A DNA stretch of 38,253 nt from a virus: IMG/VR virus record IMGVR_UViG_3300002821_000002, positions 1 through 38,253 of that record; one strand, 5' to 3'. The notes beneath the pieces were generated by a model that saw only the letters and a program-made list of their open reading frames with translations, was not told the DNA's origin and ran no database searches. Of this stretch, positions 1 through 27,917 are shown one piece after another. Position numbers and translations under genes: made by a program. The first letter of the stretch is position 1. Every line of letters starts with the position of its first letter.

Positions 1-1413
1 GTCAACAAGTTCGGCAACATCGCCGACGGTATCAACGATCTCGCATACTCGACCGGCCTGAGCACCCGGAAGGTCCAGGAGCTCCAGTATGCCGCCGCGA
101 TCTCAAACACCCAGTTCTCCACGGTCACCGGCGGCATCAAACTGTTCACCATGGCGATCGTCGAGGCCAAAGACGAATCATCGGAAGCTGCCAAGGCATT
201 TGCGGCCCTGGGTGTCACGACCATCGGCAGGAGCTACGACCAGATCTGGGAAGACACCGCACGGGCGATCGCGAGCGTTGAAGACGAGACCACACGGGCC
301 GCCCTCGCCAATACCCTCTACGGCCGGGGCTGGCAGGAGATGGTGCCCTACATCCATGACTATGTCCAGAACGCAGACAAGATCAAGGGCATCGACTACC
401 TCACGGACGAGCAGCTGGACGACCTGGAAGAGGCCAAAGCCCAGCTGGACGCGCTCGGGTACAAGCTCACTCTTGTAGAGGGCGGTGTTGTGGCGTTCTT
501 TGCCAACCTCAACTCGGAAGGCAACAAGTTCGAGGTGGAGGACACGGTCCTCGACCGGCTGCTGGCGGGGAAAGGGTTCCAGGAGAGTTTCATGCCATGG
601 CAGACCCCGCAGGAGGAGCCCGGCAAAACCCCGGCAAAACCCCCGATACCGACCAACGCTGCGGACGTGGCATCCGCGATCGTTGAAGGGATGTCCGCTA
701 CTGATGCAAAGGCTGCGTATCTTGAGAGGTATACCATCCCGGGCCTGCAGAAAGCCTATGATGCTCTCAAAGCAAGCGGCGTCGCATCTGCCGAAGATAT
801 CTCTGCAGCGTATATCCAGCTCCAGGAAGCAAAGGAGCAGCTGATCCGGCTGACTGAAGACCAGACAAATTCGGAAAAGACGCTTGCAAAAACCGTGGGG
901 GGTGTGGAGTCAGAATACCAGCGGCTCGAAGATATCAACCGCGACTTCCAGCGGGAGATGAGCATCACCAACCCCCGGGACGTTGCGAGGATCCGTGACC
1001 TCAACATAAGGCACCAGTGGGCGGTCGAGGACCAGCAGAACAAGGTGGGGGTGGCCGAGATGGACAGTGCATCGGTTGTCGCCGCAGCCGCTGCAGCTGC
1101 TGTTGCCGCCGTCCGGAACCCTGCACCGATCCCCGAATCTCCGCCCACAACAGGTGTTCCCGGGGGATATAACAATGTCCTGGAGTTCCACCAGGAGAAC
1201 AGCTTGATGCCCCCTGCCCAGATACAGGGGCCGGTCCAGGAATTCCCATCTCCGATACCCACGCCGGCGACTACCCCGGCGGGGAACATGAACCTGCCGA
1301 ACATCACGTACGGTGACCTGATCGTCAACATCGACGGTAAGCAGCTGATGAAAGTTGGCGGAATCGTTGCAGCTCCCAAAGGAGAGAGATCGCTTATGCA
1401 GGCGGGATACTGA
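1..1413 (+). CDS. Tape measure protein, 5'-truncated
   Basis: Frame open from base 1 (VNKFGNIADGINDLAYSTGLSTRKVQELQYAA...); Ala-rich helical sequence; precedes tail-tip genes, and the chaperone lies at the other end of the window. Confidence 0.85.
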   Translation, partial: VNKFGNIADGINDLAYSTGLSTRKVQELQYAAAISNTQFSTVTGGIKLFTMAIVEAKDESSEAAKAFAALGVTTIGRSYDQIWEDTARAIASVEDETTRAALANTLYGRGWQEMVPYIHDYVQNADKIKGIDYLTDEQLDDLEEAKAQLDALGYKLTLVEGGVVAFFANLNSEGNKFEVEDTVLDRLLAGKGFQESFMPWQTPQEEPGKTPAKPPIPTNAADVASAIVEGMSATDAKAAYLERYTIPGLQKAYDALKASGVASAEDISAAYIQLQEAKEQLIRLTEDQTNSEKTLAKTVGGVESEYQRLEDINRDFQREMSITNPRDVARIRDLNIRHQWAVEDQQNKVGVAEMDSASVVAAAAAAAVAAVRNPAPIPESPPTTGVPGGYNNVLEFHQENSLMPPAQIQGPVQEFPSPIPTPATTPAGNMNLPNITYGDLIVNIDGKQLMKVGGIVAAPKGERSLMQAGY

Positions 1414-1754
1414 TGACCGCCCCCTGCACCTTCGGCACCACAACCGTCCCGTCACGGGCGGTCCGGTACATGAAGATCATCGGCTCGTACGAGTTTGAAG
1501 CCGAGCTGGAGTGTGCGACCAAGACCTTCAGTGAATACACGGCCCTTGCTGCTCTTGCCGGGCCCTGCACCCCCACCCAACTGTTATCGGGAAAGGTCAA
1601 GGTCCAGACCACCGGGGGCACGAAGGCATCCCTTGTACTCAATGGCGCGACTTATACGAATTGTTACATCACGGAGATCAGCACTGCCGAAGCAGATGGG
1701 ATGCAGCTGAAACTGTGGATCTTCACCATCAAGTTCGTCAAGGAGACTGTATGA
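1413..1754 (+). CDS. Putative distal tail (Dit-like) protein
   Basis: 113 aa, TGATG-coupled to tape measure; beta-rich; call based on position. Confidence 0.55.
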   Translation: MTAPCTFGTTTVPSRAVRYMKIIGSYEFEAELECATKTFSEYTALAALAGPCTPTQLLSGKVKVQTTGGTKASLVLNGATYTNCYITEISTAEADGMQLKLWIFTIKFVKETV

Positions 1755-2305
1755 GACCAGACAGAGATCTATTATTCAACCGCCCCCCTCTCCCCGTTCC
1801 GGGCACGTCCCGGTTCGAGACCGTCCATGAAGACGGCGAGGGCAATGTACTGAGCTATGACTGCGTGTACGGCCCCGGCGTGGCTATCAGGGCCGGGATC
1901 GGGCGACATGTCGATATGCCGCTGGTGCCGTTCCTCGGACCTGCCGGCGGCATCCTGATCACCATCCCGACCGTGGGGCATAACAAGTTTGCCGCCATTA
2001 TCGGAGCCCTGACCGGCTGGACGATGAAGATCGGGATCGGCACCGGAGCAGAATCCGCAGGGGATTCCGATCTGTCGAGCGCGATCACCACCTACGGCGG
2101 GGATACCGCGAGCGTTACCCCGTCAGTGACTGACAACGTGATCACGATGGCGCACCAGTGGACGTTCACCACAGGGGCCTCATTCGCTGTGGATGAATCC
2201 GGCGTGTTCAAGGATACTGTGCTGATGATGCGGCACAAGTATTCCAGCGTGAAAAACGTCGTGGTGAGTGACAAACTGACCTGCACGCTGACGGACACGG
2301 TATAA
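1751..2305 (+). CDS. Virion structural (tail/baseplate-region) protein
   Basis: ATG 1751 overlaps the upstream stop; IGIGTG...DSDL...VDESGVF...KLTCTLT pattern typical of tail proteins. Confidence 0.65.
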   Translation: MRPDRDLLFNRPPLPVPGTSRFETVHEDGEGNVLSYDCVYGPGVAIRAGIGRHVDMPLVPFLGPAGGILITIPTVGHNKFAAIIGALTGWTMKIGIGTGAESAGDSDLSSAITTYGGDTASVTPSVTDNVITMAHQWTFTTGASFAVDESGVFKDTVLMMRHKYSSVKNVVVSDKLTCTLTDTV

Positions 2306-2320
2306 CGGGGGTAAAAGAAA

Positions 2321-2695
2321 ATGGGACTTTCGATAACAGTAGGCGCGATCCTTGAAAACAAAACCGTTGCGGAATCGGCAAGCTCGGTTCTTGCAGAATG
2401 CACTGCGGTAGATGCCAGCACCGCAATCGCGCTCGGTATTGAGGTATTGCTGACCTTCCACGGCAGCGCAACCCTCGGGGCAACGGTCAAGGTGTTCACC
2501 TCTTCGGACGGTACGAACTACACGACCAACCAGACGCAGGAATATGATATTCCGGTATCGGCTGGGGCAACGGTCCGTCACTCATTCACGGTCCTCACGG
2601 GGCACAAGTACTATAAGGTGCAGGTCACGAACCTCGACACCGCGCAGGATATCACCGCCCTGTACATCTACTCCGAGCCGCAGTTGGCCTCGTAA
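2321..2695 (+). CDS. Putative virion structural protein
   Basis: 124 aa, Thr/Val-rich, beta-sandwich-like, in tail operon. Confidence 0.6.
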   Translation: MGLSITVGAILENKTVAESASSVLAECTAVDASTAIALGIEVLLTFHGSATLGATVKVFTSSDGTNYTTNQTQEYDIPVSAGATVRHSFTVLTGHKYYKVQVTNLDTAQDITALYIYSEPQLAS

Positions 2696-2704
2696 GGTGC
2701 CCCA

Positions 2705-5700
2705 ATGACGGCACCTACACCCCCCGATTATTCTCAGTGGAAATACCGGGCGCGGATCCGGATCACCAACCCGGCAGCAGTTGCCAACTATCAGCATCTT
2801 CTCACGCTGACATGGAAACCCGGGATGCGGTCGGATTTCCGGGACGTTCGGTTTACGGAGCAGGACGGCACCAACTGCCCGTATTGGATAGAGTCTAAGA
2901 CTGACCGCAGCTCGGCAAAAGTCTGGATCAAGGTGCCGTCCGCCAGCCAGGGGCTCATATTCCTGTATTACGGGAACGGTGCTGCGGTCAGCGAGAGTAA
3001 CGGGGACGACACCTTCGATTTCTTCGATGACTTTCCCGGCTCTGCGATTGATACGGATAAATGGGAGGGAGATACCGCCTCGGCAGCGGTAAGCTCTGGG
3101 GTAATGACCTTTAAGTGTGATTCCGGATCCTACAAGGTCTTAAGGTCTAAAACATCATACGGCCCGGGCGCAGTCCTCGAAGCGTACATGAAACCATACC
3201 ACACCAGCGGGGCCGATTTTTATGGTTTTTCAAACGCAGGAGTAACGGAGGCTATTTTCTGGTATCTTAACTCCACGAACAACCTGCTTTATTCGATAGA
3301 GGGCAGTTCTGCGGGGTCCGCGGCAACCAATTTCACCACCGCAACAACATACCGCACGATAAAAATAGCGTTTGAAAGCGCCACGCAAGCGAGATTCTTT
3401 GAGGGCGGTGTGGAAAGAACCAACTCGCCCCTCACCACGAAGATCCCTGATGGCGCAATACCAATCATGATGCGGTCGTTATCGACAACAACCGGATGGG
3501 TTACAGATTGGATATTTATCAGGAAATATGTAGCCACGGCCCCGACCCTCGCAGCTTACTTTACCGGTGTGAGCCCGCGTCTCCCCCATCAGGGTGTCCA
3601 CGGGCTCACCCTATCAGCCGGCACAGAATACGCATTCGATCCGGTGAACGTCGATCACGGAATGGTTGCCGGATATGGCGGGCAGGAGATCATCCAGACT
3701 ACCAACGTCAACCACAGCATGACGCCCGGAGCAGGGGCGCAGGACGTGGAGTGTGGCGCCGTCAATATCTATCACCCGATCTACCCGACGGCATCATGGG
3801 CCCAGATAATCGATCCGGTTGTTGACAGCGGGTATCTTATCGGAGTCACGGTATCGCAGAGTATGGACGACGCGATGGCGGAGGCCGTCTTTGAATACGA
3901 CGGCAACGAGATCGGCAACTACTTTTCTGGCGACTATATGACACAGGTCCACGTCACCATACCCGATTACCTCGGCGTCAGCAACTGTGTTTTTGTCGGT
4001 ATCATCCCCTCATCTCATGCGGTCTATGACGTGGCACGGGATAAGATGACAATGCGGGCGGTTGATTATGGGCTGTTCCTGTCAAAGCAGACACTGGATA
4101 TCAAAGACCTCTCCATTCTCCCGCCGGGCGACCAGACCAGCGAAGGCGCTAATATCGCCAAAACCTTATCCTGCGATAACATTACCCGCCCGTTCCAGCT
4201 TGGTCAGACCATTAAAGGGGCCACCTCCGGAGCGTCCGGGACTATTGTCGATATCGCCGCCGCCCATATCCTTTGGCTCTACCCGGCAACAGGGAACTTT
4301 GTTGATGATGAGATAATACAGGTGGGGGGTGTTGATGTTGCATATGCTGATGGGCGCTCCGTAAACACCTCATATACCCCGTATTATGCCACCACGAGCC
4401 CGGAGGACTGGGTCCGGTCGATCCTTGGTGGGAATAACTGGATGCGGGTTGCCGGGATTGAGCCGACCGAGATCGAGTCTTCTGCCGGGTACTGGGATAC
4501 CGCAGACTGCCCGGCGGTTGCGTTCATGTTCAGTTCCCTTGAGAAGAAGCGGGACGCCCTCAAACGGGTCGCGGCGTATATGAGTTACATGTGGCACGTC
4601 AAGCCGCGAAGTATCGGCACGGGAATCTACACACAAGCCGGGTATTTCATCAAGCAAACCTCTATTGATTCCCTCCTTGCCCTGCCGGCTGCGGCAACTA
4701 TTGCCGGGCCGGACGACTTCGCCGGGCCGATCACGCTGGATCAGGATGGAGAACTCCAAGTGGATGTGGTTAAGGTCAGGTGCCAGGATCTGAAAGGGAC
4801 GTGGTTGCCCGAGGAGATCAGATCGAATAGTTTCTATGATGCAGGAGAAGGGCCATACCGGGAGTTCCGTGATGAACCGAAAGATATCTGCACTCAGACG
4901 GACCTCGCCGCATACGCCACCGATATGTATAATCTGTATTCCGCCCGCACCTGTTCATGGTCCGGCACGCTTGTTGCACGGGCAGACCTGCAACTCTACC
5001 AGCTTCTCACCATATCCGGGATGGGAACAGAAGTACCGGACGGCACATACCGGATCACCAAAATCACCCACGAATACGGGTGCGCCAAGAACCTGACACA
5101 TATCACGTTCATGCTGAGCACATCCTTCTCAATCCTTCGGAAATACGGGATGACCTATAAGGATTCAATCTCAAAAGTCCAGCAGATCGCCGAAGGTTTG
5201 GAAAACCGGAAACCGCAGACAGAACTCGCAACGGTGACAGCGACCGACGGGTGGACTATCACCTATAGAACCGAAGCGGGCAATACGGGGATGGGGAGGG
5301 ATAGTACATCTACCCCGCTCGTGGCCGGAACGGTGCCGGTTGGTGCCAAGGTATCCGTGCAGACCATGCGGGGCGGGGTTGTCTGTATCCCCCTTACGAG
5401 CGGTCCGGCGGCAGGGACAGATGTATCGGTGGTCGATGTGCCTACCTATGCGCAGGCGATAACTTATGAAGTCGATCCCGCGTGGTATATCCTCTTGTGG
5501 AAACCCGGCGCGAATAACGACAACGTGCGGATTGATATCAGTACAAGCGGGTATTCAGCCACACCGGGCGACGGGGCGATGACTCATCTTTTCCCGATAT
5601 CCACAACAGACGCACGTGTGGCGTTCATCGAGAGAAACACCGTGCATTATATATCGTTGTGGGGGGTCAAGGGCGGGAGGTTCAGCACCACCGCCAAACA

Positions 5701-6109
5701 GATCACGATCACGTCCGCAGAGGATCTTTACGTTGACCCGGACATCATCCCAATAGAGCCCCCATTATCTTATGGAGAGATCTGGTACGGCGAAAGTATC
5801 ACCGGCGGCGAACACCACGGCACCGGGGAGGATTCGTATATTTTCCTTCGTAACCTTGGGGATACTGGGACTGTTACGACGACAAAGAATTTCTCGGCAA
5901 TCGCCATCTCCACGTATCAATCAGACGCGAATGACGGGACGATAGATATCCTGGTGGGCGGGGCTAAATACCTCACGGTGGACACCCACGAAATGGGAAC
6001 GGATACGATCAGCATTGATTTCGGGACGACGTGGGCCGCCGGGACCGTAATCACAATCCGCACGCCAACAAGCGCAGACGCCCACATCTGGTACATCAAA
6101 ACGTGGTGA
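2705..6109 (+). CDS. Multidomain tail tip/adhesin: N-terminal DUF2341 plus lectin-like region, central hub-like region, C-terminal FN3-like region
   Basis: WKYR..I.ITN...DFRDVRF..QDG...YWIE...VWIKVP...YYGN...NGDDTFDFFDDF matches DUF2341; 1134 aa; last tail gene. Confidence 0.8.
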   Translation: MTAPTPPDYSQWKYRARIRITNPAAVANYQHLLTLTWKPGMRSDFRDVRFTEQDGTNCPYWIESKTDRSSAKVWIKVPSASQGLIFLYYGNGAAVSESNGDDTFDFFDDFPGSAIDTDKWEGDTASAAVSSGVMTFKCDSGSYKVLRSKTSYGPGAVLEAYMKPYHTSGADFYGFSNAGVTEAIFWYLNSTNNLLYSIEGSSAGSAATNFTTATTYRTIKIAFESATQARFFEGGVERTNSPLTTKIPDGAIPIMMRSLSTTTGWVTDWIFIRKYVATAPTLAAYFTGVSPRLPHQGVHGLTLSAGTEYAFDPVNVDHGMVAGYGGQEIIQTTNVNHSMTPGAGAQDVECGAVNIYHPIYPTASWAQIIDPVVDSGYLIGVTVSQSMDDAMAEAVFEYDGNEIGNYFSGDYMTQVHVTIPDYLGVSNCVFVGIIPSSHAVYDVARDKMTMRAVDYGLFLSKQTLDIKDLSILPPGDQTSEGANIAKTLSCDNITRPFQLGQTIKGATSGASGTIVDIAAAHILWLYPATGNFVDDEIIQVGGVDVAYADGRSVNTSYTPYYATTSPEDWVRSILGGNNWMRVAGIEPTEIESSAGYWDTADCPAVAFMFSSLEKKRDALKRVAAYMSYMWHVKPRSIGTGIYTQAGYFIKQTSIDSLLALPAAATIAGPDDFAGPITLDQDGELQVDVVKVRCQDLKGTWLPEEIRSNSFYDAGEGPYREFRDEPKDICTQTDLAAYATDMYNLYSARTCSWSGTLVARADLQLYQLLTISGMGTEVPDGTYRITKITHEYGCAKNLTHITFMLSTSFSILRKYGMTYKDSISKVQQIAEGLENRKPQTELATVTATDGWTITYRTEAGNTGMGRDSTSTPLVAGTVPVGAKVSVQTMRGGVVCIPLTSGPAAGTDVSVVDVPTYAQAITYEVDPAWYILLWKPGANNDNVRIDISTSGYSATPGDGAMTHLFPISTTDARVAFIERNTVHYISLWGVKGGRFSTTAKQITITSAEDLYVDPDIIPIEPPLSYGEIWYGESITGGEHHGTGEDSYIFLRNLGDTGTVTTTKNFSAIAISTYQSDANDGTIDILVGGAKYLTVDTHEMGTDTISIDFGTTWAAGTVITIRTPTSADAHIWYIKTW

Positions 6110-6986: not shown

Positions 6987-7006
6987 GATTCCTGAAAAAC
7001 GGCAAG

Positions 7007-7091
7007 TGCGAGGGATGGGATTCGAACCCAAGAACCCCTGCGGGACTAGCCCCTGAAGCTAGCGTCGTTGACCTGGCTTGACTACCCTCGC
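7007..7091 (-). tRNA. trnL: tRNA-Leu(CAG), full length, probable attP
   Basis: GCGAGGG/CCCTCGC acceptor stem, CTAGC-TTCAGGG-GCTAG anticodon arm, long variable arm, TTCGAAT T-loop, A73, no encoded CCA; T5 run just downstream. Confidence 0.95.
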
Positions 7092-7166
7092 TCTTTTGAA
7101 TGATTTTGCACGATCCTGATGCCATGTTCCGTCATGCGGCCCTGAACCTTACGCAGCGTCATGGCG

Positions 7167-7174
7167 TTTATTTA
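7167..7174 (+). promoter_or_regulatory. TATA box for a probably leaderless integrase transcript
   Basis: TTTATTTA 25-32 nt upstream of ATG 7199. Confidence 0.5.
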
Positions 7175-7198
7175 CAGGAAAAACTATATAGAAAAACC

Positions 7199-8326
7199 AT
7201 GTCTGAGGAGTACCTGAAACATCTGCCGCAGCTCGACCCGGCCAACCGGAAAATAATCACGGCTTATATCCGCCGGCAGGAGCTCAAGCAGCTGCAACCG
7301 TCCAGCATCCAGGACAAGACCTGGCGGGTCTACTACCTGCTGAAGTTCCTGCGGTTCAAGGACGCGAAGGCAGTCACCAAGGCGGACCTGGAGGACTATA
7401 TCATCCACCGCAGGAAAACTGTGGCTCCCCGGACCCTGCAGGGCGATATGATCGAACTGCGGATCTTCTTCCGGTACCTCGACCCCGGAAAGGAAAAGGA
7501 GTTCTTCCCCGCTGATGAGAAGATGCAGAAGCCGAAGACCGAGTTCCCGGACCCACTGACCCGGGAGGAGATTGAGCGCTTGGTCAATGCATGCGACACG
7601 GTTCGCGACAAGGCTCTGGTCAAGTTCCTTTGGGATACCGGCTGCCGGCTCGATGAAGCCCTGTCCCTGAACGTGGGGGCCGTCAAATTCGACCAGTACG
7701 GCGGGTCCGTGAAGGTTGGCGGTAAGACCGGGGAGCGGGAACTCTGGCTGATTGACTGCGTGCCGGAGCTCCAGGCATGGGTCAACGCTCACCCCATGAA
7801 AGCGGATCCCGCGGCCCCGCTGTTCATCACCTACTCCCGGTACGGGTTCGGGGCCCGCAGGCTGAACGAGCGGACCGTGCAGAACCTGTGCAAGACCCTG
7901 CAGCGCAATGCCGGTGTCACCACGCGGGTCCATCCCCATGCATTCCGTCATGCCAGGGCCACGGACCGCGCCCGGGAGGGATTCACCGAGATGGAACTCC
8001 GGATCATGTTCGGGTGGAGCAAATCCAGCAACATGCCTGCAACCTACATCCACCTCTCCGGGGCCGATGTCAAGAAAAAGATCCTGCAGAAGGCGGGCCT
8101 GCAGGAAGCCGAGGTCCCCGCGGGAGAGCGGCCCCTGGACCCGGTCAAGTGCCCCCGCTGCGGTCTGCTGAACCAGAAGGGGTTCTATACCTGTGCCCGG
8201 TGCAATACGCCATTATCATCGGAGGCGATGCGGTATATCAAGCTGGGCCGTGAGCTCCTGGAGGATCCCGACATGATGATAGAGTATGCGCGGAAGAAGA
8301 AGCGGGAAGTAAAAGAGGGGGGATGA
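7199..8326 (+). CDS. int: Tyrosine integrase with C-terminal Zn ribbon
   Basis: TGCRLDE (R), GKTGER (K), HAFRH (HxxR), FGWS...PATYIHL (W, Y); CPRCG...CARC; adjacent to tRNA; start 7199 preferred to 7100. Confidence 0.95.
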   Translation: MSEEYLKHLPQLDPANRKIITAYIRRQELKQLQPSSIQDKTWRVYYLLKFLRFKDAKAVTKADLEDYIIHRRKTVAPRTLQGDMIELRIFFRYLDPGKEKEFFPADEKMQKPKTEFPDPLTREEIERLVNACDTVRDKALVKFLWDTGCRLDEALSLNVGAVKFDQYGGSVKVGGKTGERELWLIDCVPELQAWVNAHPMKADPAAPLFITYSRYGFGARRLNERTVQNLCKTLQRNAGVTTRVHPHAFRHARATDRAREGFTEMELRIMFGWSKSSNMPATYIHLSGADVKKKILQKAGLQEAEVPAGERPLDPVKCPRCGLLNQKGFYTCARCNTPLSSEAMRYIKLGRELLEDPDMMIEYARKKKREVKEGG

Positions 8327-22397: not shown

Positions 22398-22645
22398 GCG
22401 AAGAAGCGATACGAAGCGAAGTCTCCCCGGGCCGTTGGGGTACCAACCGGCGCGGAGATCGCGTCCACTTCTTCGTCAGGCGTACCGATACCGGCAAGTG
22501 CGAGAGTCTCTGTGGTAGGATGAAACAGTTCGATGAGGGCCTCAATGCCCGGCTGGATATGGAGCATTGGAACCCGGACGATAGCCGGACCTGTAAGACC
22601 TGCCTGTTAATGCAGAAGTGGTTTAAAAACGAGAAGATATCTTAA
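22394..22645 (+). CDS. 83-aa hypothetical protein (TTG start)
   Basis: GGTGA RBS, TTGA overlap; HFF...SLCG...CKTC. Confidence 0.55.
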   Translation: MSEEAIRSEVSPGRWGTNRRGDRVHFFVRRTDTGKCESLCGRMKQFDEGLNARLDMEHWNPDDSRTCKTCLLMQKWFKNEKIS

Positions 22646-22671
22646 TTTAAATAAAGGTGATATTGAAATGC

Positions 22672-23529
22672 ATGGATAAAGACTCGGAAGGGAAACCCCC
22701 TCAAACCAATTACAATAAATATGCACGTCATTGTTTTATAATCGCCATTCTTCTTCTCGGTATTGCTTTAGTTTTTACGGTTTATTTAGCCGTAATTAAT
22801 CAGATCTCAGTTGAAATGATTCTCGGTTCGGATCTTGCTCTCGCAGCCATTTTTGTCGCATTCGGGTTCTATTTCAGGGGCGATTTTAAAAACATGGATA
22901 CCCTGAATCAATCAGAACAGAAAGATGAGATTTTTTCCTGTTTAAAAAAAGTTTTTGATCAACTAGATCACCTCCATCCAACAACTCACGGAATATACCA
23001 AACTCAAAACGACACTCTTGAAAATACCAGGGTTGCATACGAATTCCGAAATCAGAGATCTCTTGAATTGGCAGGTTATATCCGGTTGCTCGATGCAGGC
23101 GTATGGGGATTCTTAGGGTTTGCTGCCGTCGAACTATTTAGGGACAAATGGACGTCTGATACAATCATCTTTTTTTGCATTATTGTAATAATTGCGATGA
23201 TTCTGTGGCGTTGTATGGCACTAAAATATAACGAAGACATCATCGGAGAGTATATCAAAATTTTATATTGTGAATGTGCTCTTAACCTCGATGATGCAAT
23301 ATCCCTTAAAGACAGTTTGATACCCAAAATGGATAACAAAACGGAATATTGTTGTTTAACCAATAAGGAACAATATCACAAGCTTATTCGAGATCTAAAG
23401 AGGGGAAAACAACCAGAAACGGATCATAAAAATTGGGATAAAATCGCTTTGGTTGCCATCATCGTTGCAGTATTCATTCTCCTAATTCTTGGGTTACCAA
23501 AAATAATATCCTTCTTTTCATTGGTTTAA
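22672..23529 (+). CDS. AT-rich multi-pass membrane protein (moron)
   Basis: About 5 hydrophobic segments; own TATA box TTTAAATA at 22646-22653; alternative GTG start at 22657. Confidence 0.75.
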   Translation: MDKDSEGKPPQTNYNKYARHCFIIAILLLGIALVFTVYLAVINQISVEMILGSDLALAAIFVAFGFYFRGDFKNMDTLNQSEQKDEIFSCLKKVFDQLDHLHPTTHGIYQTQNDTLENTRVAYEFRNQRSLELAGYIRLLDAGVWGFLGFAAVELFRDKWTSDTIIFFCIIVIIAMILWRCMALKYNEDIIGEYIKILYCECALNLDDAISLKDSLIPKMDNKTEYCCLTNKEQYHKLIRDLKRGKQPETDHKNWDKIALVAIIVAVFILLILGLPKIISFFSLV

Positions 23530-24347: not shown

Positions 24348-24506
24348 ATGCCCCAGTTCAGGATCAAGGTCCCGGAACCCTTCGAGGCGCTGGTCTCTCC
24401 CGACGGCTCATCGTACGCCTTCTACGCATTCGGCAAATTGACCACCATGTCCAAGGGGGAGTTCGAGGCGACGTATGAAAAACTCCCTTTTGTGAAGGGG
24501 GCGTGA
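24348..24506 (+). CDS. 52-aa hypothetical protein
   Basis: MPQFRIKVPEPFEALVSPDGSSYAFYAFGKLTTMSKGEFEATYEKLPFVKGA; GTGA overlap. Confidence 0.6.
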   Translation: MPQFRIKVPEPFEALVSPDGSSYAFYAFGKLTTMSKGEFEATYEKLPFVKGA

Positions 24507-25129
24507 CGGCATGCTCGCCCCCGATCCCCTCGGCAGCCCAGGAGCCCGCAGCATCATCGACCGGGCCCGTGAACTATATCGCCGGGTCTGCTACTTCATC
24601 CGGGGCTGGCTCCGTGGTTAACCCCGGCGAGATCAAGACCATCGGCGGCGTGGAATACTGGATAGAGCCGGACGGGTACACGGTCGAGATGAAGTTCGTC
24701 CGGAAATACCCCGCCCTGTTCGGCCCGCTGGCTGTCGATCCTGACAAAGGCCAGGGAGATGTGGAATGCGACGACCCACTCTCGAAGATCACCGCGAAAC
24801 TCACCGGATACGGCGGCACCTACTCCACCTGGGCAGAACGGCACTGTTCCCTCAGTGCGCTGGCAATCGGCATCAACGATGTCGAATCCTCTGCCGATGT
24901 GCCCCCCTGCCCGAAGTTCTGGCTCCATGAAAACCAGTATTGGGTGGACCATATCGCCATAGGCCGGCTGACCAAGAAGACCAACGTCGCGGAAGCTGCC
25001 AGCACGACCTTCACGGGCATCCTGAGCAACCCGCGGGTGCTGGCGACCATCGCAGCGGCACTCACTGCCGGCGGGGTCTTCCTTCCGACCGCCGCAAAGA
25101 CCATCCTTGCGATGGTAGGTATCTCCTGA
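24503..25129 (+). CDS. Hypothetical protein with hydrophobic C-terminus
   Basis: 208 aa; ends VLATIAAALTAGGVFLPTAAKTILAMVGIS. Confidence 0.7.
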   Translation: MTACSPPIPSAAQEPAASSTGPVNYIAGSATSSGAGSVVNPGEIKTIGGVEYWIEPDGYTVEMKFVRKYPALFGPLAVDPDKGQGDVECDDPLSKITAKLTGYGGTYSTWAERHCSLSALAIGINDVESSADVPPCPKFWLHENQYWVDHIAIGRLTKKTNVAEAASTTFTGILSNPRVLATIAAALTAGGVFLPTAAKTILAMVGIS

Positions 25130-25139
25130 TGAACACTAC

Positions 25140-25305
25140 GGGCCGGGCTCTGATGAGGCAAAAATGACGCGGTTCAAACCATCCGCCCCGGCCCATCTCC
25201 CTGCGTGTAGCGGGCACGCTCCATCTCCCGCTGCATCCGGGGATCATCACTCCAACGAAGGCGGCTATGCTACCCTTACCGGTTCGTCGTTCCGGATGGC
25301 CGCCG
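25140..25305 (+). ncRNA. Candidate structured RNA: two acceptor-stem plus T-arm-like units flanking a long hairpin
   Basis: Stems 25140-47/25187-94, 25206-14/25227-35 and 25260-68/25296-304; substitutions form G-U pairs only on the + strand; loops begin TTC. Confidence 0.55.
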
Positions 25306-25485
25306 TCACCCTGTCAGATGAGAGAGGAGCAATAAAGTCCTGTAATGAGCCATAATGCAAACCGCACCAGGTACAGACGATCTTCCATCATGCTCCAAGT
25401 GAGATAATTGACCGATAAAACCTCTCCTCTTGAGGCAGGGACCCCGCAAGGGGACCCCCAGAAACGTAGAAAAACGTAGATTCCA

Positions 25486-25576
25486 GCCGCTGAAGCATTC
25501 GGGGAATGCCTGCACCCACACACACTCTGTCACATATGGGGTGCAGTAAATGCCGGTTCAACTCCGGCCCGTGGCT
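25486..25576 (+). ncRNA. tRNA-like element resembling tRNA-Cys, with the anticodon arm replaced by a long hairpin
   Basis: GCCGCTG/CCGTGGC acceptor (1 mismatch), GCATT/AATGC hairpin, CTGCACCC/GGGTGCAG stem, perfect T-arm GCCGG-TTCAACT-CCGGC, U discriminator. Confidence 0.7.
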
Positions 25577-25580
25577 CTCA

Positions 25581-25742
25581 ATGAAACACGAAATCGCAGA
25601 AGAACCCGCAACGGTCCGGCTCCGGCACATCCTCCGGCCCGACACCTGGAGCGGGCTCTCGCTGCTGGAGAAGATAGCGGTCGTGCAGCTGGCGCTCGGG
25701 GCCTGCACGTTCGTCCTGCTGGTCGTTCTGGTGACCGGATGA
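25581..25742 (+). CDS. 53-aa protein with C-terminal TM helix
   Basis: MKHEIAEEP...IAVVQLALGACTFVLLVVLVTG; stop overlaps next ATG. Confidence 0.55.
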   Translation: MKHEIAEEPATVRLRHILRPDTWSGLSLLEKIAVVQLALGACTFVLLVVLVTG

Positions 25743-25861
25743 TCTCCCGGCGCGACAAGACTCTCATCATCCTGACCTGTGCAGCAGCGGTAGCAATAGC
25801 GGCGTTCCTGATAGTGCTCCGGCAGTGGGCTGAACACCTGGCAGCAGCGGGGGTGCCGTGA
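25739..25861 (+). CDS. 40-aa single-TM protein
   Basis: MISRRDKTLIILTCAAAVAIAAFLIVLRQWAEHLAAAGVP; GTGA overlap with terS. Confidence 0.6.
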   Translation: MISRRDKTLIILTCAAAVAIAAFLIVLRQWAEHLAAAGVP

Positions 25862-26409
25862 GGATGGCCGTCGCGAAAAAGAGACCGGCGAAAGGCAAGA
25901 AGGCAAAAAAGAAGGCCGGACCGGCAAAGGCCGCTGCGGAGATGGGCCGCCCCACCAAGTATGACCCGGACGTGCACCCGCTCATGGGATGGATGCTGGC
26001 AATCCGGGGCAAGACCAACAAGGAGATCGCCGCCGGGCTTAGAATCTCAACCGGTACGCTATTCAGCTGGACAAAACTCCATGAGGACTTCCTGAGCGCC
26101 ATAAAAAGCGGCAAGGATGTCGCTGATGCAGGTGTCGAGCAGGCCCTGTACAAACGGGCGCTCGGGTATGACTACGACTTCACCGAGACCACTCACGACC
26201 CGGAGAAAGGCGACACCATCAAGAACGGCAAGAAGCATGTGGCCGGCGATGTCACTGCCCAGATCTTCTGGCTCTGCAACCGCAGGAAAGAGGACTGGAG
26301 GAACGTGAACAAGCTGGAACACAGCGGCCCGAACGGCGGCCCGATCCGGGTCGTGAAAGCCGAGGATCTGACTGATGACGAACTTGCAAGGATAGTCGCC
26401 CAGAAATGA
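25858..26409 (+). CDS. terS: Terminase small subunit
   Basis: GRPTKY...HTH...ADAGVEQALYKRALGY...DVTAQIFWL.NR...EHSGPNGGPI; precedes TerL. Confidence 0.9.
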   Translation: MRMAVAKKRPAKGKKAKKKAGPAKAAAEMGRPTKYDPDVHPLMGWMLAIRGKTNKEIAAGLRISTGTLFSWTKLHEDFLSAIKSGKDVADAGVEQALYKRALGYDYDFTETTHDPEKGDTIKNGKKHVAGDVTAQIFWLCNRRKEDWRNVNKLEHSGPNGGPIRVVKAEDLTDDELARIVAQK

Positions 26410-27917
26410 CCGAAGCCGCCGCCGCAACACCTACTCCCATCCTGCCTTATGAAGCTGCCGAGGAGATGCTGCGAAGGAGGAGTGCCCGAGCGGGGTTGCT
26501 CGAGTTCACCCGGTACACGAAACCCGATTACCAGACCAACTGGCACCACGATGCCCTGTGCAGGTACCTCGACCGGTTCGTATCAGGAGAGATCAAGCGG
26601 CTGATGGTCTTCATGCCGCCCAGGCACGGGAAATCCGAGCTTGTCAGTCGCCGGCTGCCTGCATACATCTTCGGGAGGGATCCAGACACCAGCATCATCT
26701 CCTGCTCTTATGGTGCTGACCTTGCATCACGCATGAATCGCGATGTCCAGCGAATCATCGAGTCACCCACGTACCGAAAACTGTTCCCGGACACTACCCT
26801 GTTCGGGACCAATGTGCGTACGGTCGCGGACGGCTCGTACCTGCGAAACTCCGATATTTTCGAGATTGTCGGGCACACGGGAGTATATCGTTCTGCAGGT
26901 GTCGGTGGCGGGATTACCGGCATGGGCTGTGTGTATGGGATCATCGACGACCCGCTCAAAAACCGGGAAGAGGCCTCCAGTCGGACGATCCGGGAGACCA
27001 TCTGGGAGTGGTATACCTCCACCTTCTACACCCGGCTCGAGAAGGATGCCCAGATCCTCATCACCATGACGCGGTGGCATGAGGGAGATCTCGCGGGCAA
27101 GGTCCTCGAGCTTGCCGAGAGTGAAGGTGGGGAGAAGTGGACCATCGTGAACTTTCCAGCGGTCGCTGAAACCCCGTCAGAAGACGACCCTCGGCATGTC
27201 GGCGACCCGCTCTGGCCGGAGAAGTACGATACCCGGAGACTCGAAGCTATTCGGACTACACTTGGTTCTTATCAGTGGTCCGCCCTTTACCAGCAACGCC
27301 CAACCCCGCAGGAAGGCGGGATGTTCAAGCGGCAGTGGTTCACGATCATCGACCAGGCACCCCGCGACCTCATTAAGGTCCGCAGGTGGGACCTGGCAGC
27401 GTCACTGAACAAGGGGGACTGGACAGCCGGGCTGCACTATGGCCGGAAAGACGGCCGGTTCTATATCCTTGATCTCCAGCACGTCAGGGAGAGCCCTGCA
27501 GGTGTCGAGGCCCTTGTTCGGCAGACCGCTCAGACGGACGGGTACGAGACTATGATCCGGATGGAGCGGGAGCCCGGTTCTTCTGGTGTCAACACCGTTG
27601 ACCACTACGCCAGGCACGTGCTCGTCGGGTACTCTTTCCTTGGCGTCCCCTCTACCGGATCGAAAGAGGTCCGGGCACAGCCTGTCAGTGCGGCGGCAGA
27701 GGCCGGCAACGTCTTCCTAGTCAAAGGACCATGGAACCTCGTGTTCCTGGATGAAGTCACCACGTTCCCGAACGGAGATAACGATGATATTGTCGATGTC
27801 CTGTCCGGAGCTCACCATGACCTTACCCAGAACGACGGTGCAACCGAACTGACACTTGAACACGCCGGCGGGTTCGGCCCGCAGAACAAGATGAAAATCC
27901 GAGGTGGATTAATGTGA
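26406..27917 (+). CDS. terL: Terminase large subunit
   Basis: LMVFMPPRHGKSE (Walker A), GIIDDP (Walker B), WDLA and NDDIVD nuclease motifs. Confidence 0.97.
   Translation: MTEAAAATPTPILPYEAAEEMLRRRSARAGLLEFTRYTKPDYQTNWHHDALCRYLDRFVSGEIKRLMVFMPPRHGKSELVSRRLPAYIFGRDPDTSIISCSYGADLASRMNRDVQRIIESPTYRKLFPDTTLFGTNVRTVADGSYLRNSDIFEIVGHTGVYRSAGVGGGITGMGCVYGIIDDPLKNREEASSRTIRETIWEWYTSTFYTRLEKDAQILITMTRWHEGDLAGKVLELAESEGGEKWTIVNFPAVAETPSEDDPRHVGDPLWPEKYDTRRLEAIRTTLGSYQWSALYQQRPTPQEGGMFKRQWFTIIDQAPRDLIKVRRWDLAASLNKGDWTAGLHYGRKDGRFYILDLQHVRESPAGVEALVRQTAQTDGYETMIRMEREPGSSGVNTVDHYARHVLVGYSFLGVPSTGSKEVRAQPVSAAAEAGNVFLVKGPWNLVFLDEVTTFPNGDNDDIVDVLSGAHHDLTQNDGATELTLEHAGGFGPQNKMKIRGGLM

What the first reader, a model, noticed from the sequence alone, without database searches (positions are those of the whole stretch)
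25140..25576. Array of three tRNA-like elements upstream of the terminase genes
Seen: three units in which a hairpin with a TTC-starting loop stacks directly on the 3' strand of a GC-rich closing stem. Unit 1: GGGCCGGG...GCGG-TTCAAACCAT-CCGC-CCCGGCCC-A (25140-195). Unit 2: GGCGGCTAT...CCGG-TTCGTCGTT-CCGG-ATGGCCGCC-G (25260-305). Unit 3: 25486-576. None has a normal anticodon arm. A long hairpin (25198-243) separates units 1 and 2, and TGATGA (25151-56) could pair with TCATCA (25244-49) as a pseudoknot. Stem substitutions are G-U-compatible on the + strand only. No credible protein is encoded here. Inference: a viral ncRNA locus of tRNA top-half mimics, acting as RNase P/Z processing signals, decoys for tRNA-targeting defences, or a packaging-associated RNA.
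Basis: partly seen in the sequence, partly recalled or inferred. Interest (0 to 1): 0.88.

Follow-up and report, generated by a model that had tools for sequence, protein, structure and literature searches.

The report
Structured viral RNA with tRNA relic
The gap before the DNA-packaging genes of this methanogen virus encodes a conserved, elaborately folded RNA of an undescribed family that ends in a decayed threonine-tRNA look-alike four bases before the next gene's start codon, most likely a cutting signal for the host's tRNA-trimming enzymes.

Summary
All three units and the long hairpin fold as described. The host is an archaeon (Methanoregula), not a bacterium.

Unit 3 (25486-25576) is a derivative of a virus-borne tRNA-Thr gene. 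At the same position, relatives carry intact tRNA-Thr, a tRNA-Thr with a canonical archaeal intron, tRNA-likes without an anticodon, or bare acceptor/T-arm minihelices. The next gene's ATG always lies 3-6 nt after the discriminator base and has no Shine-Dalgarno sequence.

Units 1 and 2 and the hairpin are domains of one ~340-nt structured RNA (25117-25455). It is closed by a long-range helix (25309-15 with 25434-40) and a GNRA hairpin. It is conserved in at least 13 contigs with abundant compensatory changes, matches no Rfam family and is not protein-coding.

Unit 1 has a tRNA-minus-anticodon-arm layout in every lineage. Unit 2's "TTC" loop is peculiar to this window.

My best reading is inferred, not shown: the module is co-transcribed and RNase P and tRNase Z cut at the tRNA-like element(s). 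This would free the structured RNA and a late mRNA with almost no leader. No RNA data were available. The proposed pseudoknot is not conserved, and decoy and packaging roles have no support.

The parts
25117..25139 (+). Conserved 5' junction of the module. The stop codon of the upstream gene (25127-25129) overlaps a conserved ATG (25129-25131) that opens only a 12-codon frame here.
   Evidence: The nucleotide motif is kept even where a different gene lies upstream (L032, L035, L036). The frame opened by this ATG is not conserved.
25140..25194 (+). Closing stem 25140-47 with 25187-94. Hairpin A 25148-57. Hairpin B 25169-86, stacked on the 3' strand. The layout is that of a tRNA lacking its anticodon arm.
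   Evidence: Fold. The same architecture with different helix sequences occurs in about 10 lineages. Helices are 96-100% paired, against 55-77% when the 3' strands are swapped among sequences. The hairpin-B loop starts N-U-C-purine in all lineages.
25198..25243 (+). P2: long hairpin with a conserved outer stem, a variable inner stem and a C/A-rich loop.
   Evidence: z -3.6 here; mean z -4.1 over 12 homologs on the + strand against -2.9 on the - strand. The inner stem differs in nearly every lineage yet always pairs. Two G-U pairs here are A-U and C-G in L002.
25260..25304 (+).
   Evidence: Covariance model R2, alignment of 13 homologs: 97% of cells paired against 81% in shuffles (0 of 500 as high); 7 of 12 pairs changed on both sides; slid controls 18-47%.
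25309..25315 (+). P4, 5' strand of the long-range helix.
   Evidence: A perfectly complementary 7-mer lies 100-150 nt downstream in all 13 homologs. There are six different sequence versions, and the chance of a match is 2-9% per sequence. The helix is predicted in single-sequence folds of 11 of 12 homologs.
25434..25440 (+). P4, 3' strand of the long-range helix.
   Evidence: Three lineages have G-U pairs as read on the + strand; none has A-C.
25442..25453 (+). P5: 4-bp hairpin with a GNRA tetraloop, directly after P4.
   Evidence: Present as a GCAA or GAAA hairpin in the window, L002, L003, L030, L031, L004 and L045.
25460..25485 (+). A-rich linker with two ACGUAG repeats (25464-69 and 25474-79).
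   Evidence: One or two copies are conserved before the tRNA slot in the window, L002, L003, L030, L031, L028 and L037. A mosaic breakpoint lies at 25452.
25486..25576 (+). Unit 3: tRNA-Thr-derived tRNA-like element. Acceptor stem 25486-92 with 25569-75 (6 of 7 pairs). D-like hairpin 25495-25509. An 8-bp stem (25510-17 with 25539-46) with a 21-nt loop replaces the anticodon arm. Canonical T arm 25552-68. Discriminator base 25576.
   Evidence: Model R1 links it to the tRNA-Thr genes of L028, L036 and L037. There is no bulge-helix-bulge intron motif. It is 89% identical to L030, while both flanks are 64% identical. One stem pair occurs as C-G, U-A and U-G.
25581..25742 (+). First gene after the module: a 53-aa single-pass membrane protein. 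Its ATG lies 4 nt after the discriminator and has no Shine-Dalgarno sequence. It is followed by a 40-aa ORF (25739-25861), terminase small subunit (25858-26409) and terminase large subunit (26406-27917).
   Evidence: The N-terminus is conserved in L002, L003 and L030. The upstream in-frame ATG at 25506 is not conserved. Terminase small subunit matches phrog_309 at 1e-41; terminase large subunit matches Pfam.

Best explanation
The stretch 25117-25576 is a non-coding RNA cassette of a tailed virus of the methanogen Methanoregula. It is read on the + strand as part of the transcript that runs from the upstream gene into the late (packaging) genes.

The cassette has two parts:
1. A ~340-nt structured RNA of an undescribed family. 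It comprises P1 (a tRNA-shaped three-way junction), P2 (a long hairpin), P3 (a stem with a stacked hairpin), a long-range helix P4 and a GNRA hairpin P5.
2. A 'tRNA slot'. Here it holds a tRNA-Thr derivative that has kept its acceptor stem and T arm and lost any anticodon loop.

Proposed mechanism (inferred):
- Host RNase P cuts at the 5' end of the tRNA-like element.
- tRNase Z cuts after its discriminator base, as they do on pre-tRNA.
- This separates the structured RNA from the downstream message.
- The late mRNA then begins 3-6 nt before its AUG and must be translated without a Shine-Dalgarno sequence.
- P1, and less surely P3, may be older tRNA relics used in the same way. If so, P2 and the P4-P5 domain would be released as discrete small RNAs.

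Shown: conservation, covariation, descent of unit 3 from tRNA, the spacing rule and the absence of coding. Inferred: transcription, cleavage and the effect on translation.
For: Host and setting:
- Relatives lie in Methanoregula genome bins.
- The window encodes PCNA, a terminase small subunit and a terminase large subunit.

Unit 3 descends from tRNA:
- Model R1 built on unit 3 hits the same position in L028, L036, L037/L038 and L039.
- At that position ARAGORN and Rfam call tRNA-Thr(UGU) and tRNA-Thr(CGU) at 53 bits, and an intron-bearing tRNA-Thr at 43 bits with a perfect bulge-helix-bulge motif.

Selection on the top half of the tRNA:
- Unit 3 is 89% identical between the window and L030, while both flanks are 64% identical.
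- L033 has a GAAA tetraloop where the anticodon should be.
- L044 and L004 keep only an acceptor (6 of 7 pairs) plus T-arm minihelix.

Spacing:
- The distance from the T stem to the ATG is 11-14 nt in 14 contigs, ahead of at least six unrelated genes, none with a Shine-Dalgarno sequence.

Structured RNA:
- P3 covariation, P4, P1 and P2.
- There is no canonical TATA box inside 25100-25600. P4 spans the putative internal AT-rich box, so both strands of P4 must lie on one transcript.

Enzymology:
- Methanomicrobial RNase Z cuts just after the discriminator. It accepts pre-tRNAs lacking the D, anticodon or T arm, but needs the acceptor stem (PMC7479834).
- Haloferax tRNA-like elements are cut by RNase P and tRNase Z in vivo (PMC4946936).
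- tRNase Z matures the 5' end of 5S rRNA (PMC7714728).
Against: - There are no expression or RNA-end data (see Tried and rejected).
- Methanogens are reported generally to use 5' UTRs, with leaderless mRNAs uncommon (PMC3600222). Efficient translation of a 4-nt-leader mRNA in this host is therefore uncertain.
- The acceptor stem of unit 3 has one mismatch and one G-U pair.
- L045 shows no acceptor pairing at all and L031 only 5 of 7 pairs, so cleavage cannot be universal in the family.
- The close ATG spacing could simply reflect compact viral gene packing.
- Processing at unit 3 does not explain why a 340-nt ornate RNA is conserved upstream. Its own function remains unassigned.
- The tRNA covariance model does not score units 1 to 3 at all.
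Confidence: 0.5

Rival explanations
1. The ~340-nt structured RNA is a trans-acting viral RNA with a function of its own: a scaffold, a ribozyme, a protein sponge, or an assembly like the ornate phage RNAs GOLLD and ROOL. Its neighbour, the tRNA or tRNA-like element, is only a genomic companion or its 3' processing handle. The effect on the late mRNA is incidental.
For: - Five covarying helices, including a long-range helix and a GNRA hairpin.
- A conserved 11-nt loop in P3.
- The module persists when the tRNA slot is reduced (L044, L045, L004).
- ROOL and GOLLD are phage and prophage RNAs that often lie beside tRNAs (10.1101/2024.12.08.627333).
Against: - No similarity to any Rfam family, GOLLD and ROOL included.
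- Much smaller than those RNAs.
- Nothing here indicates multimerisation or catalysis.
- It does not explain the strict spacing between the T arm and the ATG.
Confidence: 0.25
2. The three units are decaying relics of a former viral tRNA gene cluster, with no present function.
For: - The tRNA slot shows every stage from intact tRNA to fragment among relatives.
- Unit 3 lacks an anticodon loop and has an acceptor mismatch.
- L044 has lost the 5' strand of the P3 closing stem.
Against: - Compensatory changes keep every helix paired across lineages whose sequences are only 26-50% identical.
- Unit 3 is an island of 89% identity between 64% flanks.
- The long-range helix P4 is not a tRNA feature.
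Confidence: 0.1
3. The tRNA-like elements are decoys or substrates that blunt host defences aimed at tRNA, or they bind a tRNA-binding protein such as ThrRS to regulate translation of the adjacent AUG.
For: - The acceptor and T-arm shape is retained.
- A UGU-containing motif, resembling the anticodon loop of the relatives' tRNA-Thr, persists inside the 21-nt loop of unit 3.
- The element abuts the start codon.
Against: - No anticodon stem-loop of normal geometry is available for anticodon nucleases.
- No defence or counter-defence gene is linked to the module in the 13 contigs.
- No CCA is encoded.
- The idea is purely by analogy.
Confidence: 0.07
4. The structures act at the DNA level: an attachment or recombination site derived from a tRNA 3' half, a packaging (pac/cos) site, or a replication origin.
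For: - A mosaic breakpoint lies at 25452, just before the tRNA slot.
- L044-type relatives keep mainly the 3' half of the tRNA.
- The site lies upstream of terminase in this virus.
Against: - No Methanoregula genome searched (45 genomes) carries a tRNA matching unit 3 or the L028 tRNA-Thr well enough for an attachment core.
- The integrase and its tRNA-Leu are 18 kb away.
- In relatives the module precedes non-terminase genes.
- G-U pairs occur only as read on the + strand, in P2 and P4.
- A helix whose strands lie 120 nt apart is an RNA feature.
Confidence: 0.05
5. A small protein starting at the conserved ATG (25129) or at 25164 is encoded here.
For: - The ATG overlapping the upstream stop codon is conserved.
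- Frames of 62-110 codons are open from it in several relatives.
Against: - The frame closes after 12 codons in this window.
- The conserved unit-2 motif is read in all three frames relative to that ATG among relatives. It differs even between the near-identical L028 and L036.
- Indels are not multiples of three.
- No Pfam or PHROG hit.
Confidence: 0.03

Closest known systems
Virus-encoded archaeal tRNA genes, e.g. the tRNA-Thr(CGU) of Haloferax tailed virus 1 (10.64898/2026.09.13.751334) and the tRNA-Thr genes of relatives L028, L036 and L037
   Same: Unit 3 shares with the relatives' tRNA-Thr the acceptor 5' strand, positions 8-9, the start of the D stem, the T arm, the 3' strand, the trailer and the genomic position. 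HFTV1 also carries a single tRNA-Thr with an odd anticodon region.
   Different: Unit 3 has an 8-bp stem and a 21-nt loop instead of a 5-bp stem and 7-nt anticodon loop. It has no splice motif, scores below every tRNA detector threshold, and cannot decode.
tRNA-like elements ('t-elements') of Haloferax volcanii, and the tRNA-like structure upstream of 5S rRNA (Hölzle 2008, 2012, as cited in PMC7714728 and PMC4946936)
   Same: Archaeal RNAs that keep only tRNA-like acceptor and T-arm features and serve as RNase P/tRNase Z cleavage marks that define the ends of a neighbouring RNA.
   Different: Those are chromosomal and haloarchaeal, and their cleavage is experimentally proven. Here the element is viral, in a methanogen, placed before a protein-coding start codon, and cleavage is untested.
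Mitochondrial tRNA punctuation (established knowledge, recalled from memory)
   Same: tRNAs embedded in a polycistronic transcript are excised by RNase P and tRNase Z, leaving mRNAs whose AUG lies at or near the 5' end.
   Different: A different domain of life. There the tRNAs are functional decoders. Here the mark has lost decoding in some lineages, and only one junction per genome is known.
GOLLD and ROOL ornate RNAs of phages and prophages (10.1101/2024.12.08.627333; PMC5737381)
   Same: Structured non-coding RNAs of unknown function, carried by viruses of prokaryotes and typically adjacent to tRNA genes.
   Different: No sequence or covariance-model similarity. About 340 nt against 580-800 nt or more. 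The host is archaeal. There is no evidence of multimeric cages.
tRNA-like structures at the 3' ends of plant RNA virus genomes (Rfam RF00233)
   Same: A viral RNA that imitates the acceptor/T-arm half of tRNA. This was the only weak Rfam hit: 17.7 bits, E 0.5, at 25491-25588.
   Different: Far below the 40-bit threshold. Those elements form the 3' terminus of an RNA genome, use a pseudoknotted acceptor and are aminoacylated. This one is internal to a DNA virus transcript and descends from a real tRNA gene.
tRNA-miRNA-encoded RNAs of murine gammaherpesvirus 68, and the stable species 1 and 2 RNAs of the phage T4 tRNA cluster (both recalled from memory, not checked here)
   Same: A viral tRNA-like unit is followed directly by a hairpin RNA that tRNase Z releases, as unit 1 is followed by P2. 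These tRNA-cluster RNAs have tRNA-like ends and no decoding role.
   Different: Eukaryotic pol III or bacterial contexts. No homology. Release of P2 is only a conjecture here.

Membership tests
tRNA (Rfam RF00005; functional decoding tRNA) | Scores at or above the Rfam gathering score (29 bits), or is called by ARAGORN with default settings | tested here: not met
   No RF00005 hit even at E <= 10 on 24900-25900. ARAGORN default finds nothing here. Controls L028, L036, L037 and L032 score 43-53 bits.
tRNA (Rfam RF00005; functional decoding tRNA) | 7-bp acceptor stem and a 5-bp T stem with a 7-nt loop of the GTTCRANYC type | tested here: met
   Unit 3 has 6 of 7 acceptor pairs (one is G-U, one is a mismatch) and a perfect T arm at 25552-25568.
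tRNA (Rfam RF00005; functional decoding tRNA) | 5-bp anticodon stem with a 7-nt loop presenting an anticodon, directly or after removal of a bulge-helix-bulge intron | tested here: not met
   Unit 3 has an 8-bp stem and a 21-nt loop. My bulge-helix-bulge scan finds the L037 control intron but no motif in this arm that would restore a tRNA. ARAGORN with introns allowed gives inconsistent isotypes among relatives.
tRNA-derived element (homology to a tRNA gene) | Positional and sequence homology to bona fide tRNA genes in related genomes | tested here: met
   Model R1 hits the syntenic tRNA-Thr genes at E 5e-10 to 3e-8.
Archaeal tRNA-like processing element (RNase P/tRNase Z substrate) | Acceptor-type stem with an unpaired discriminator base; D, anticodon and T arms dispensable (PMC7479834) | tested here: met
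   Unit 3 and unit 1 have such stems.
Archaeal tRNA-like processing element (RNase P/tRNase Z substrate) | Actual cleavage at the 5' end and after the discriminator, in vivo or in vitro | not testable with these tools
   This feature needs RNA-end data or an enzyme assay, and neither can be produced with these tools.
GOLLD (RF01998) / ROOL (RF03087) | Match to the family covariance model | tested here: not met
   No hit at E <= 10 in the window region, or at E <= 1 in seven homologous loci.
Tymovirus-type tRNA-like structure (RF00233) | Score of at least 40 bits; a 3'-terminal element of an RNA genome | tested here: not met
   17.7 bits, E 0.5. The element is internal to a DNA virus.
Integrase attachment site derived from a host tRNA | Near-identity of the viral copy to the 3' part of a host tRNA gene; position next to the integrase | tested here: not met
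   The best host match to the viral tRNA-Thr is 77% over 43 nt. Nothing matches unit 3 in 45 Methanoregula genomes searched. The integrase lies at 7100-8326.
Protein-coding gene | A reading frame conserved among relatives | tested here: not met
   The conserved motif is read in three different frames; the frame closes after 12 codons here.

The most novel reading that the evidence does not exclude
This is a natural 'tRNA punctuation' cassette in an archaeal virus. Three tRNA-derived marks (P1, P3, unit 3) would be cut by RNase P and tRNase Z. Cutting would release two structured small RNAs (the P2 hairpin and the P4-P5 domain) and a late mRNA that needs no Shine-Dalgarno sequence. The module as a whole would be the first ornate, tRNA-linked structured RNA family described for viruses of Archaea. 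It would also record, stage by stage, how tRNA genes turn into pure processing signals.
Probability: 0.25. Interest if true: 0.85.

Novelty: new variant of a known kind. Interest (0 to 1): 0.66.

Why it matters
Very little is known about RNA-level gene control in viruses of methanogens.

- **A new RNA family.** This is a covariation-supported RNA of ~340 nt with no Rfam counterpart. It sits at the switch between early and late genes.
- **A visible evolutionary series.** Related viruses show an intact tRNA-Thr, an intron-bearing tRNA, an anticodon-less tRNA-like element and a bare minihelix at the same position. The distance to the next start codon stays fixed throughout.
- **What it would show if cleavage is confirmed.** Archaeal viruses would use host tRNA-maturation enzymes to punctuate transcripts, as mitochondria do. 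The finding would also give a natural counterpart to the engineered t-element cassettes used in Haloferax.
- **A practical point for annotation.** Standard tRNA finders miss these elements. Gene callers will place spurious ORFs across the module.

Tried and rejected
- **RNA evidence.** No RNA holder is listed among public runs. One run guessed to be RNA gave a single contig over 24812-25069 only. All laid runs were contigs, so they carry no information on RNA ends.
- **Phage collection.** blastn found no match.
- **Earlier scan notes.** A lookup by sequence found nothing.
- **Hammerhead ribozyme.** The CUGAUGAG in unit 1 is only a hairpin. L045 has CUCAUGAG with the same stem.
- **RNase P RNA, SRP RNA or other known families.** No Rfam hits.
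- **Intron-bearing tRNA reading of unit 3.** No usable bulge-helix-bulge motif. The one conserved hit would delete 52 nt and leave no tRNA.
- **Internal promoter at the AT-rich box 25402-25420.** P4 pairs across it, and no canonical TATA box lies in the module. A weak promoter is not excluded.
- **Pairing of the conserved 5' junction with a downstream partner.** No consistent partner among 11 homologs.
Not conserved.
- **Loop-loop or loop-linker complementarities** (P3 loop with the AT-rich box, P3 spacer with ACGUAG). Inconsistent among lineages when checked by eye.
- **Strand choice from thermodynamics alone.** Indecisive for P1 and P3.
- **False hits.** The R2 hits in two host genomes (L060, L061) lie inside a coding region on the other strand. 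I dropped them before the final count.
- **Alignment quality.** The plain MAFFT/RNAalifold alignment of P2-P3 misaligned the shifting stems. It was replaced by a model-guided alignment and by hand segmentation. Both lean towards the structure, so swap and slide controls are reported with them.
Full report
**Setting**

The window is an IMG/VR viral record: 38,253 bases, linear, estimated 62% complete.

- It carries an integrase at 7100-8326, next to a tRNA-Leu(CAG) at 7006-7091 on the - strand.
- It encodes PCNA, a DNA methylase, NADAR and DUF5131.
- It encodes a terminase small subunit at 25858-26409 (phrog_309, 1e-41) and a terminase large subunit at 26406-27917.
- Relatives of the gene just upstream of the finding (24503-25129, no known family) lie in Methanoregula genome bins.

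The host is therefore a methanogenic archaeon. This changes how tRNA-like features should be read, because archaeal tRNA genes have bulge-helix-bulge introns and the host has archaeal RNase P and RNase Z.

**Observation**

Each unit folds on the + strand into the stated shape:

| Element | z-score |
|---|---|
| Unit 1 | -2.8 |
| Long hairpin | -3.6 |
| Unit 2 | -2.0 |
| Unit 3 | -2.6 |

The whole 461 nt scores z -2.6 on the + strand against -0.7 on the - strand.

- ARAGORN with default settings and Rfam at gathering score report nothing here.
- A permissive Rfam scan gives only Tymo_tRNA-like at 17.7 bits, E 0.5, over unit 3.
- With introns allowed, ARAGORN calls 25486-25577. It assigns His, Asp or Gly in near-identical relatives, so the call reflects shape, not a real anticodon.

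**Unit 3 is a tRNA-Thr derivative in a conserved tRNA slot**

I collected relatives through the terminase small subunit, the upstream gene and DNA patterns. A covariance model of unit 3 (R1) hits the same position in other contigs. The slot is occupied as follows:

| Contig | Occupant of the slot |
|---|---|
| L028 | tRNA-Thr(UGU), Rfam 53 bits |
| L036 | tRNA-Thr(CGU), Rfam 53 bits |
| L037/L038 | The same tRNA-Thr with a 40-nt intron; a textbook bulge-helix-bulge motif, recovered by my scan as a positive control; Rfam 43 bits |
| L032/L042 | A tRNA with an over-long anticodon stem |
| L039 | An irregular tRNA-like |
| L033 | A tRNA-like whose 'anticodon arm' ends in a GAAA tetraloop |
| L031 | An internally deleted form |
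| L044, L004 | Only an acceptor-like stem (6 of 7 pairs) plus a T-arm-like hairpin |
| L045 | Only the T-arm-like hairpin; no acceptor pairing |

The window, L002, L003 and L030 share unit 3.

- It has the tRNA-Thr acceptor 5' strand, the two following bases, the start of the D stem, a perfect T arm, the 3' strand and the trailer.
- The anticodon arm is replaced by an 8-bp stem with an 18-21-nt loop.
- One pair of that stem occurs as C-G, U-A and U-G in the three sequence versions.
- No splice motif would restore a tRNA.

Unit 3 is not drifting. Between the window and L030 it is 89% identical, while the 150 nt upstream and the downstream gene are both 64% identical.

It is also not a copy of a host tRNA, as an integrase attachment site would be. 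Nothing comparable was found in 45 Methanoregula genomes.

**A fixed distance to the next start codon**

In 14 contigs the ATG of the next gene lies 11-14 nt after the T stem, which is 3-6 nt after the discriminator base. This holds ahead of at least six unrelated genes: small membrane proteins, large secreted proteins and others. No Shine-Dalgarno sequence fits in the gap.

In this window the ATG at 25581 is the conserved start. The in-frame ATG at 25506 is not conserved.

**Units 1 and 2 and the hairpin belong to one larger RNA**

The same succession of elements follows the upstream gene in at least 13 distinct contigs.

- **P3 (unit 2).** Alignment of 13 homologs to model R2 gives 97% paired cells against 81% in shuffles (0 of 500 as high). 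Seven of 12 pairs changed on both sides, and slid controls give 18-47%.
The seven bases at 25309-25315 pair with 25434-25440.
  - In all 13 homologs exactly one perfectly complementary 7-mer lies 100-150 nt downstream.
  - Six different sequence versions occur, each with a 2-9% chance expectation.
  - Single-sequence folds find the helix in 11 of 12 homologs.
  - Three versions contain G-U as read on the + strand, and none contains A-C.
- **P5.** A GNRA-tetraloop hairpin follows P4 directly.
- **P2 (the long hairpin).** It has the strongest thermodynamic signal: mean z -4.1 on the + strand against -2.9 on the - strand over 12 homologs. Its inner stem is rewritten in nearly every lineage. Even the close pair L028 and L036 differ by two double compensations.
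- **P1 (unit 1).** It keeps one architecture with different helix sequences in about 10 lineages:
  - a 6-9-bp closing stem;
  - a small hairpin right after the 5' strand;
  - a spacer;
  - a 4-bp hairpin, usually with a 7-nt loop starting N-U-C-purine, abutting the 3' strand.

Hand-segmented helices of P1, P2 and P4 are 96-100% paired. When the 3' strands are exchanged among sequences, the figure falls to 55-86%. The segmentation was done by eye, so the swap control is the informative figure, not the percentage paired.

**Not a known family and not a protein**

- No Rfam family matches the module in the window or in seven homologs.
- A search of 151 genomes of the order with R2 found it only in a Methanoregula bin. 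It also gave two false hits inside genes.
- A conserved ATG overlaps the upstream stop codon. The frame it opens closes after 12 codons here.
- The conserved unit-2 motif is read in all three frames among relatives.

**How tRNA-like are units 1 and 2?**

Unit 1 has the layout of a tRNA without its anticodon arm. The U-C-purine start of its 'T loop' is conserved. The U54-A58 signature is present in only about four lineages, and no tRNA model scores it.

Unit 2 has no D-like hairpin. In most relatives it has an 11-nt loop with a conserved sequence, and the TTC of this window is a local variant.

I therefore regard unit 1 as a plausible old tRNA relic and unit 2 as doubtful. Either way, both are integrated into a larger fold.

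**Mechanism**

The structures, their conservation, the tRNA ancestry of unit 3 and the spacing rule are shown. The rest is inferred:

- There is no room and no canonical TATA box for a promoter inside the module. P4 requires both of its strands on one RNA. The module is therefore probably co-transcribed with the upstream gene.
- RNase Z enzymes of methanogens (Methanolobus and Methanococcus) cut right after the discriminator base. They tolerate loss of the D, anticodon or T arm, but need the acceptor stem and a mature 5' end (PMC7479834).
- Haloferax uses, and tolerates in engineered form, tRNA-like elements as RNase P/tRNase Z marks (PMC4946936; PMC7714728).

Unit 3 thus has what those enzymes need. 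Cleavage would leave a late mRNA with a 4-nt leader.

The main weakness, apart from the lack of RNA data, is that methanogens are reported mostly to use leadered mRNAs (PMC3600222). A second weakness is that L045 has no acceptor pairing at all.

The function of the 340-nt RNA itself is open. A trans-acting role, as suspected for the tRNA-associated phage RNAs GOLLD and ROOL, is the main rival.

**Verdict**

This is a real, conserved, structured non-coding RNA locus. One of the three units is demonstrably tRNA-derived. The pseudoknot and the unit-2 T-loop likeness are not supported.

The RNA family is new. The kind of thing it is, a viral tRNA-linked structured RNA with tRNA-like processing marks, has precedents.

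Noticed in passing
window 7006-7091 (-) and 7100-8326 (+): A tRNA-Leu(CAG) lies 8 nt from a tyrosine-integrase gene, with its 5' end facing the integrase. Genes at 1-6109, including a 1134-aa DUF2341 protein, may be the end of the structural module. The record may therefore be a circular permutation, or a provirus with its attachment site in the middle.
   Followed up: no
L037 3943-4056 (also L038): A viral contig carries a tRNA-Thr(UGU) with a 40-nt intron and a perfect bulge-helix-bulge motif: a 4-bp central helix flanked by two 3-nt bulges. Intron-bearing tRNAs in archaeal viruses are rarely documented.
   Followed up: partly
L032 3978-4059 and L042 1376-1457: The tRNA in the slot of this Methanoregula provirus scores 49 bits in Rfam. 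It has an over-long anticodon stem. ARAGORN reads a CUA anticodon ('Pyl') without an intron, or ACU with a 2-nt intron. This could be a suppressor or another non-decoding variant.
   Followed up: no
window 25239-25254; L002 117-130; L031 2176-2190; L032 about 3955-3967: Right after P2, several lineages carry a 10-nt motif that differs by one missing C from the 3' end of Methanoregula 16S rRNA, the anti-Shine-Dalgarno region read. L032 has an exact 11-nt copy of that rRNA end shortly before its tRNA. The inner stem of P2 in L036 resembles helix 45. The motif is present in about 5 of 11 lineages only. It could be chance, an anti-Shine-Dalgarno mimic, or a trace of rRNA-operon ancestry.
   Followed up: partly
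window 25452: This is a mosaic breakpoint. Contigs from two other metagenome runs, and loci L044, L045 and L004, match up to about 25452. They then continue with a different cassette: a T-arm-like hairpin followed by other genes.
   Followed up: partly
window 25283-25291 and 25525-25533; relatives' P3 loops: The conserved 11-nt P3 loop of relatives and the conserved core of the unit-3 loop share a CUGUC-type motif. It also resembles the anticodon loop of tRNA-Thr(UGU). The two loops may be a common protein-binding site.
   Followed up: no
window 25130-25134 and 25171-25175: The conserved bases just after the upstream stop codon are complementary to the start of the hairpin-B loop of unit 1, in the window, L002, L030 and L041 but not in L039. 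They could form a pseudoknot or a translation-sensitive switch.
   Followed up: partly
window 22622-22672: The only strong TATA-like boxes of the region lie in an AT-rich island. One lies about 20 nt before the ATG at 22668/22672, as another first-stage note remarked. Few canonical boxes occur elsewhere in the window.
   Followed up: partly
window 25581-25861: Two very small single-pass membrane proteins (53 and 40 aa) are chained by ATGA and GTGA overlaps to the terminase small subunit gene. They are conserved in L002, L003 and L030 and match no known family.
   Followed up: no
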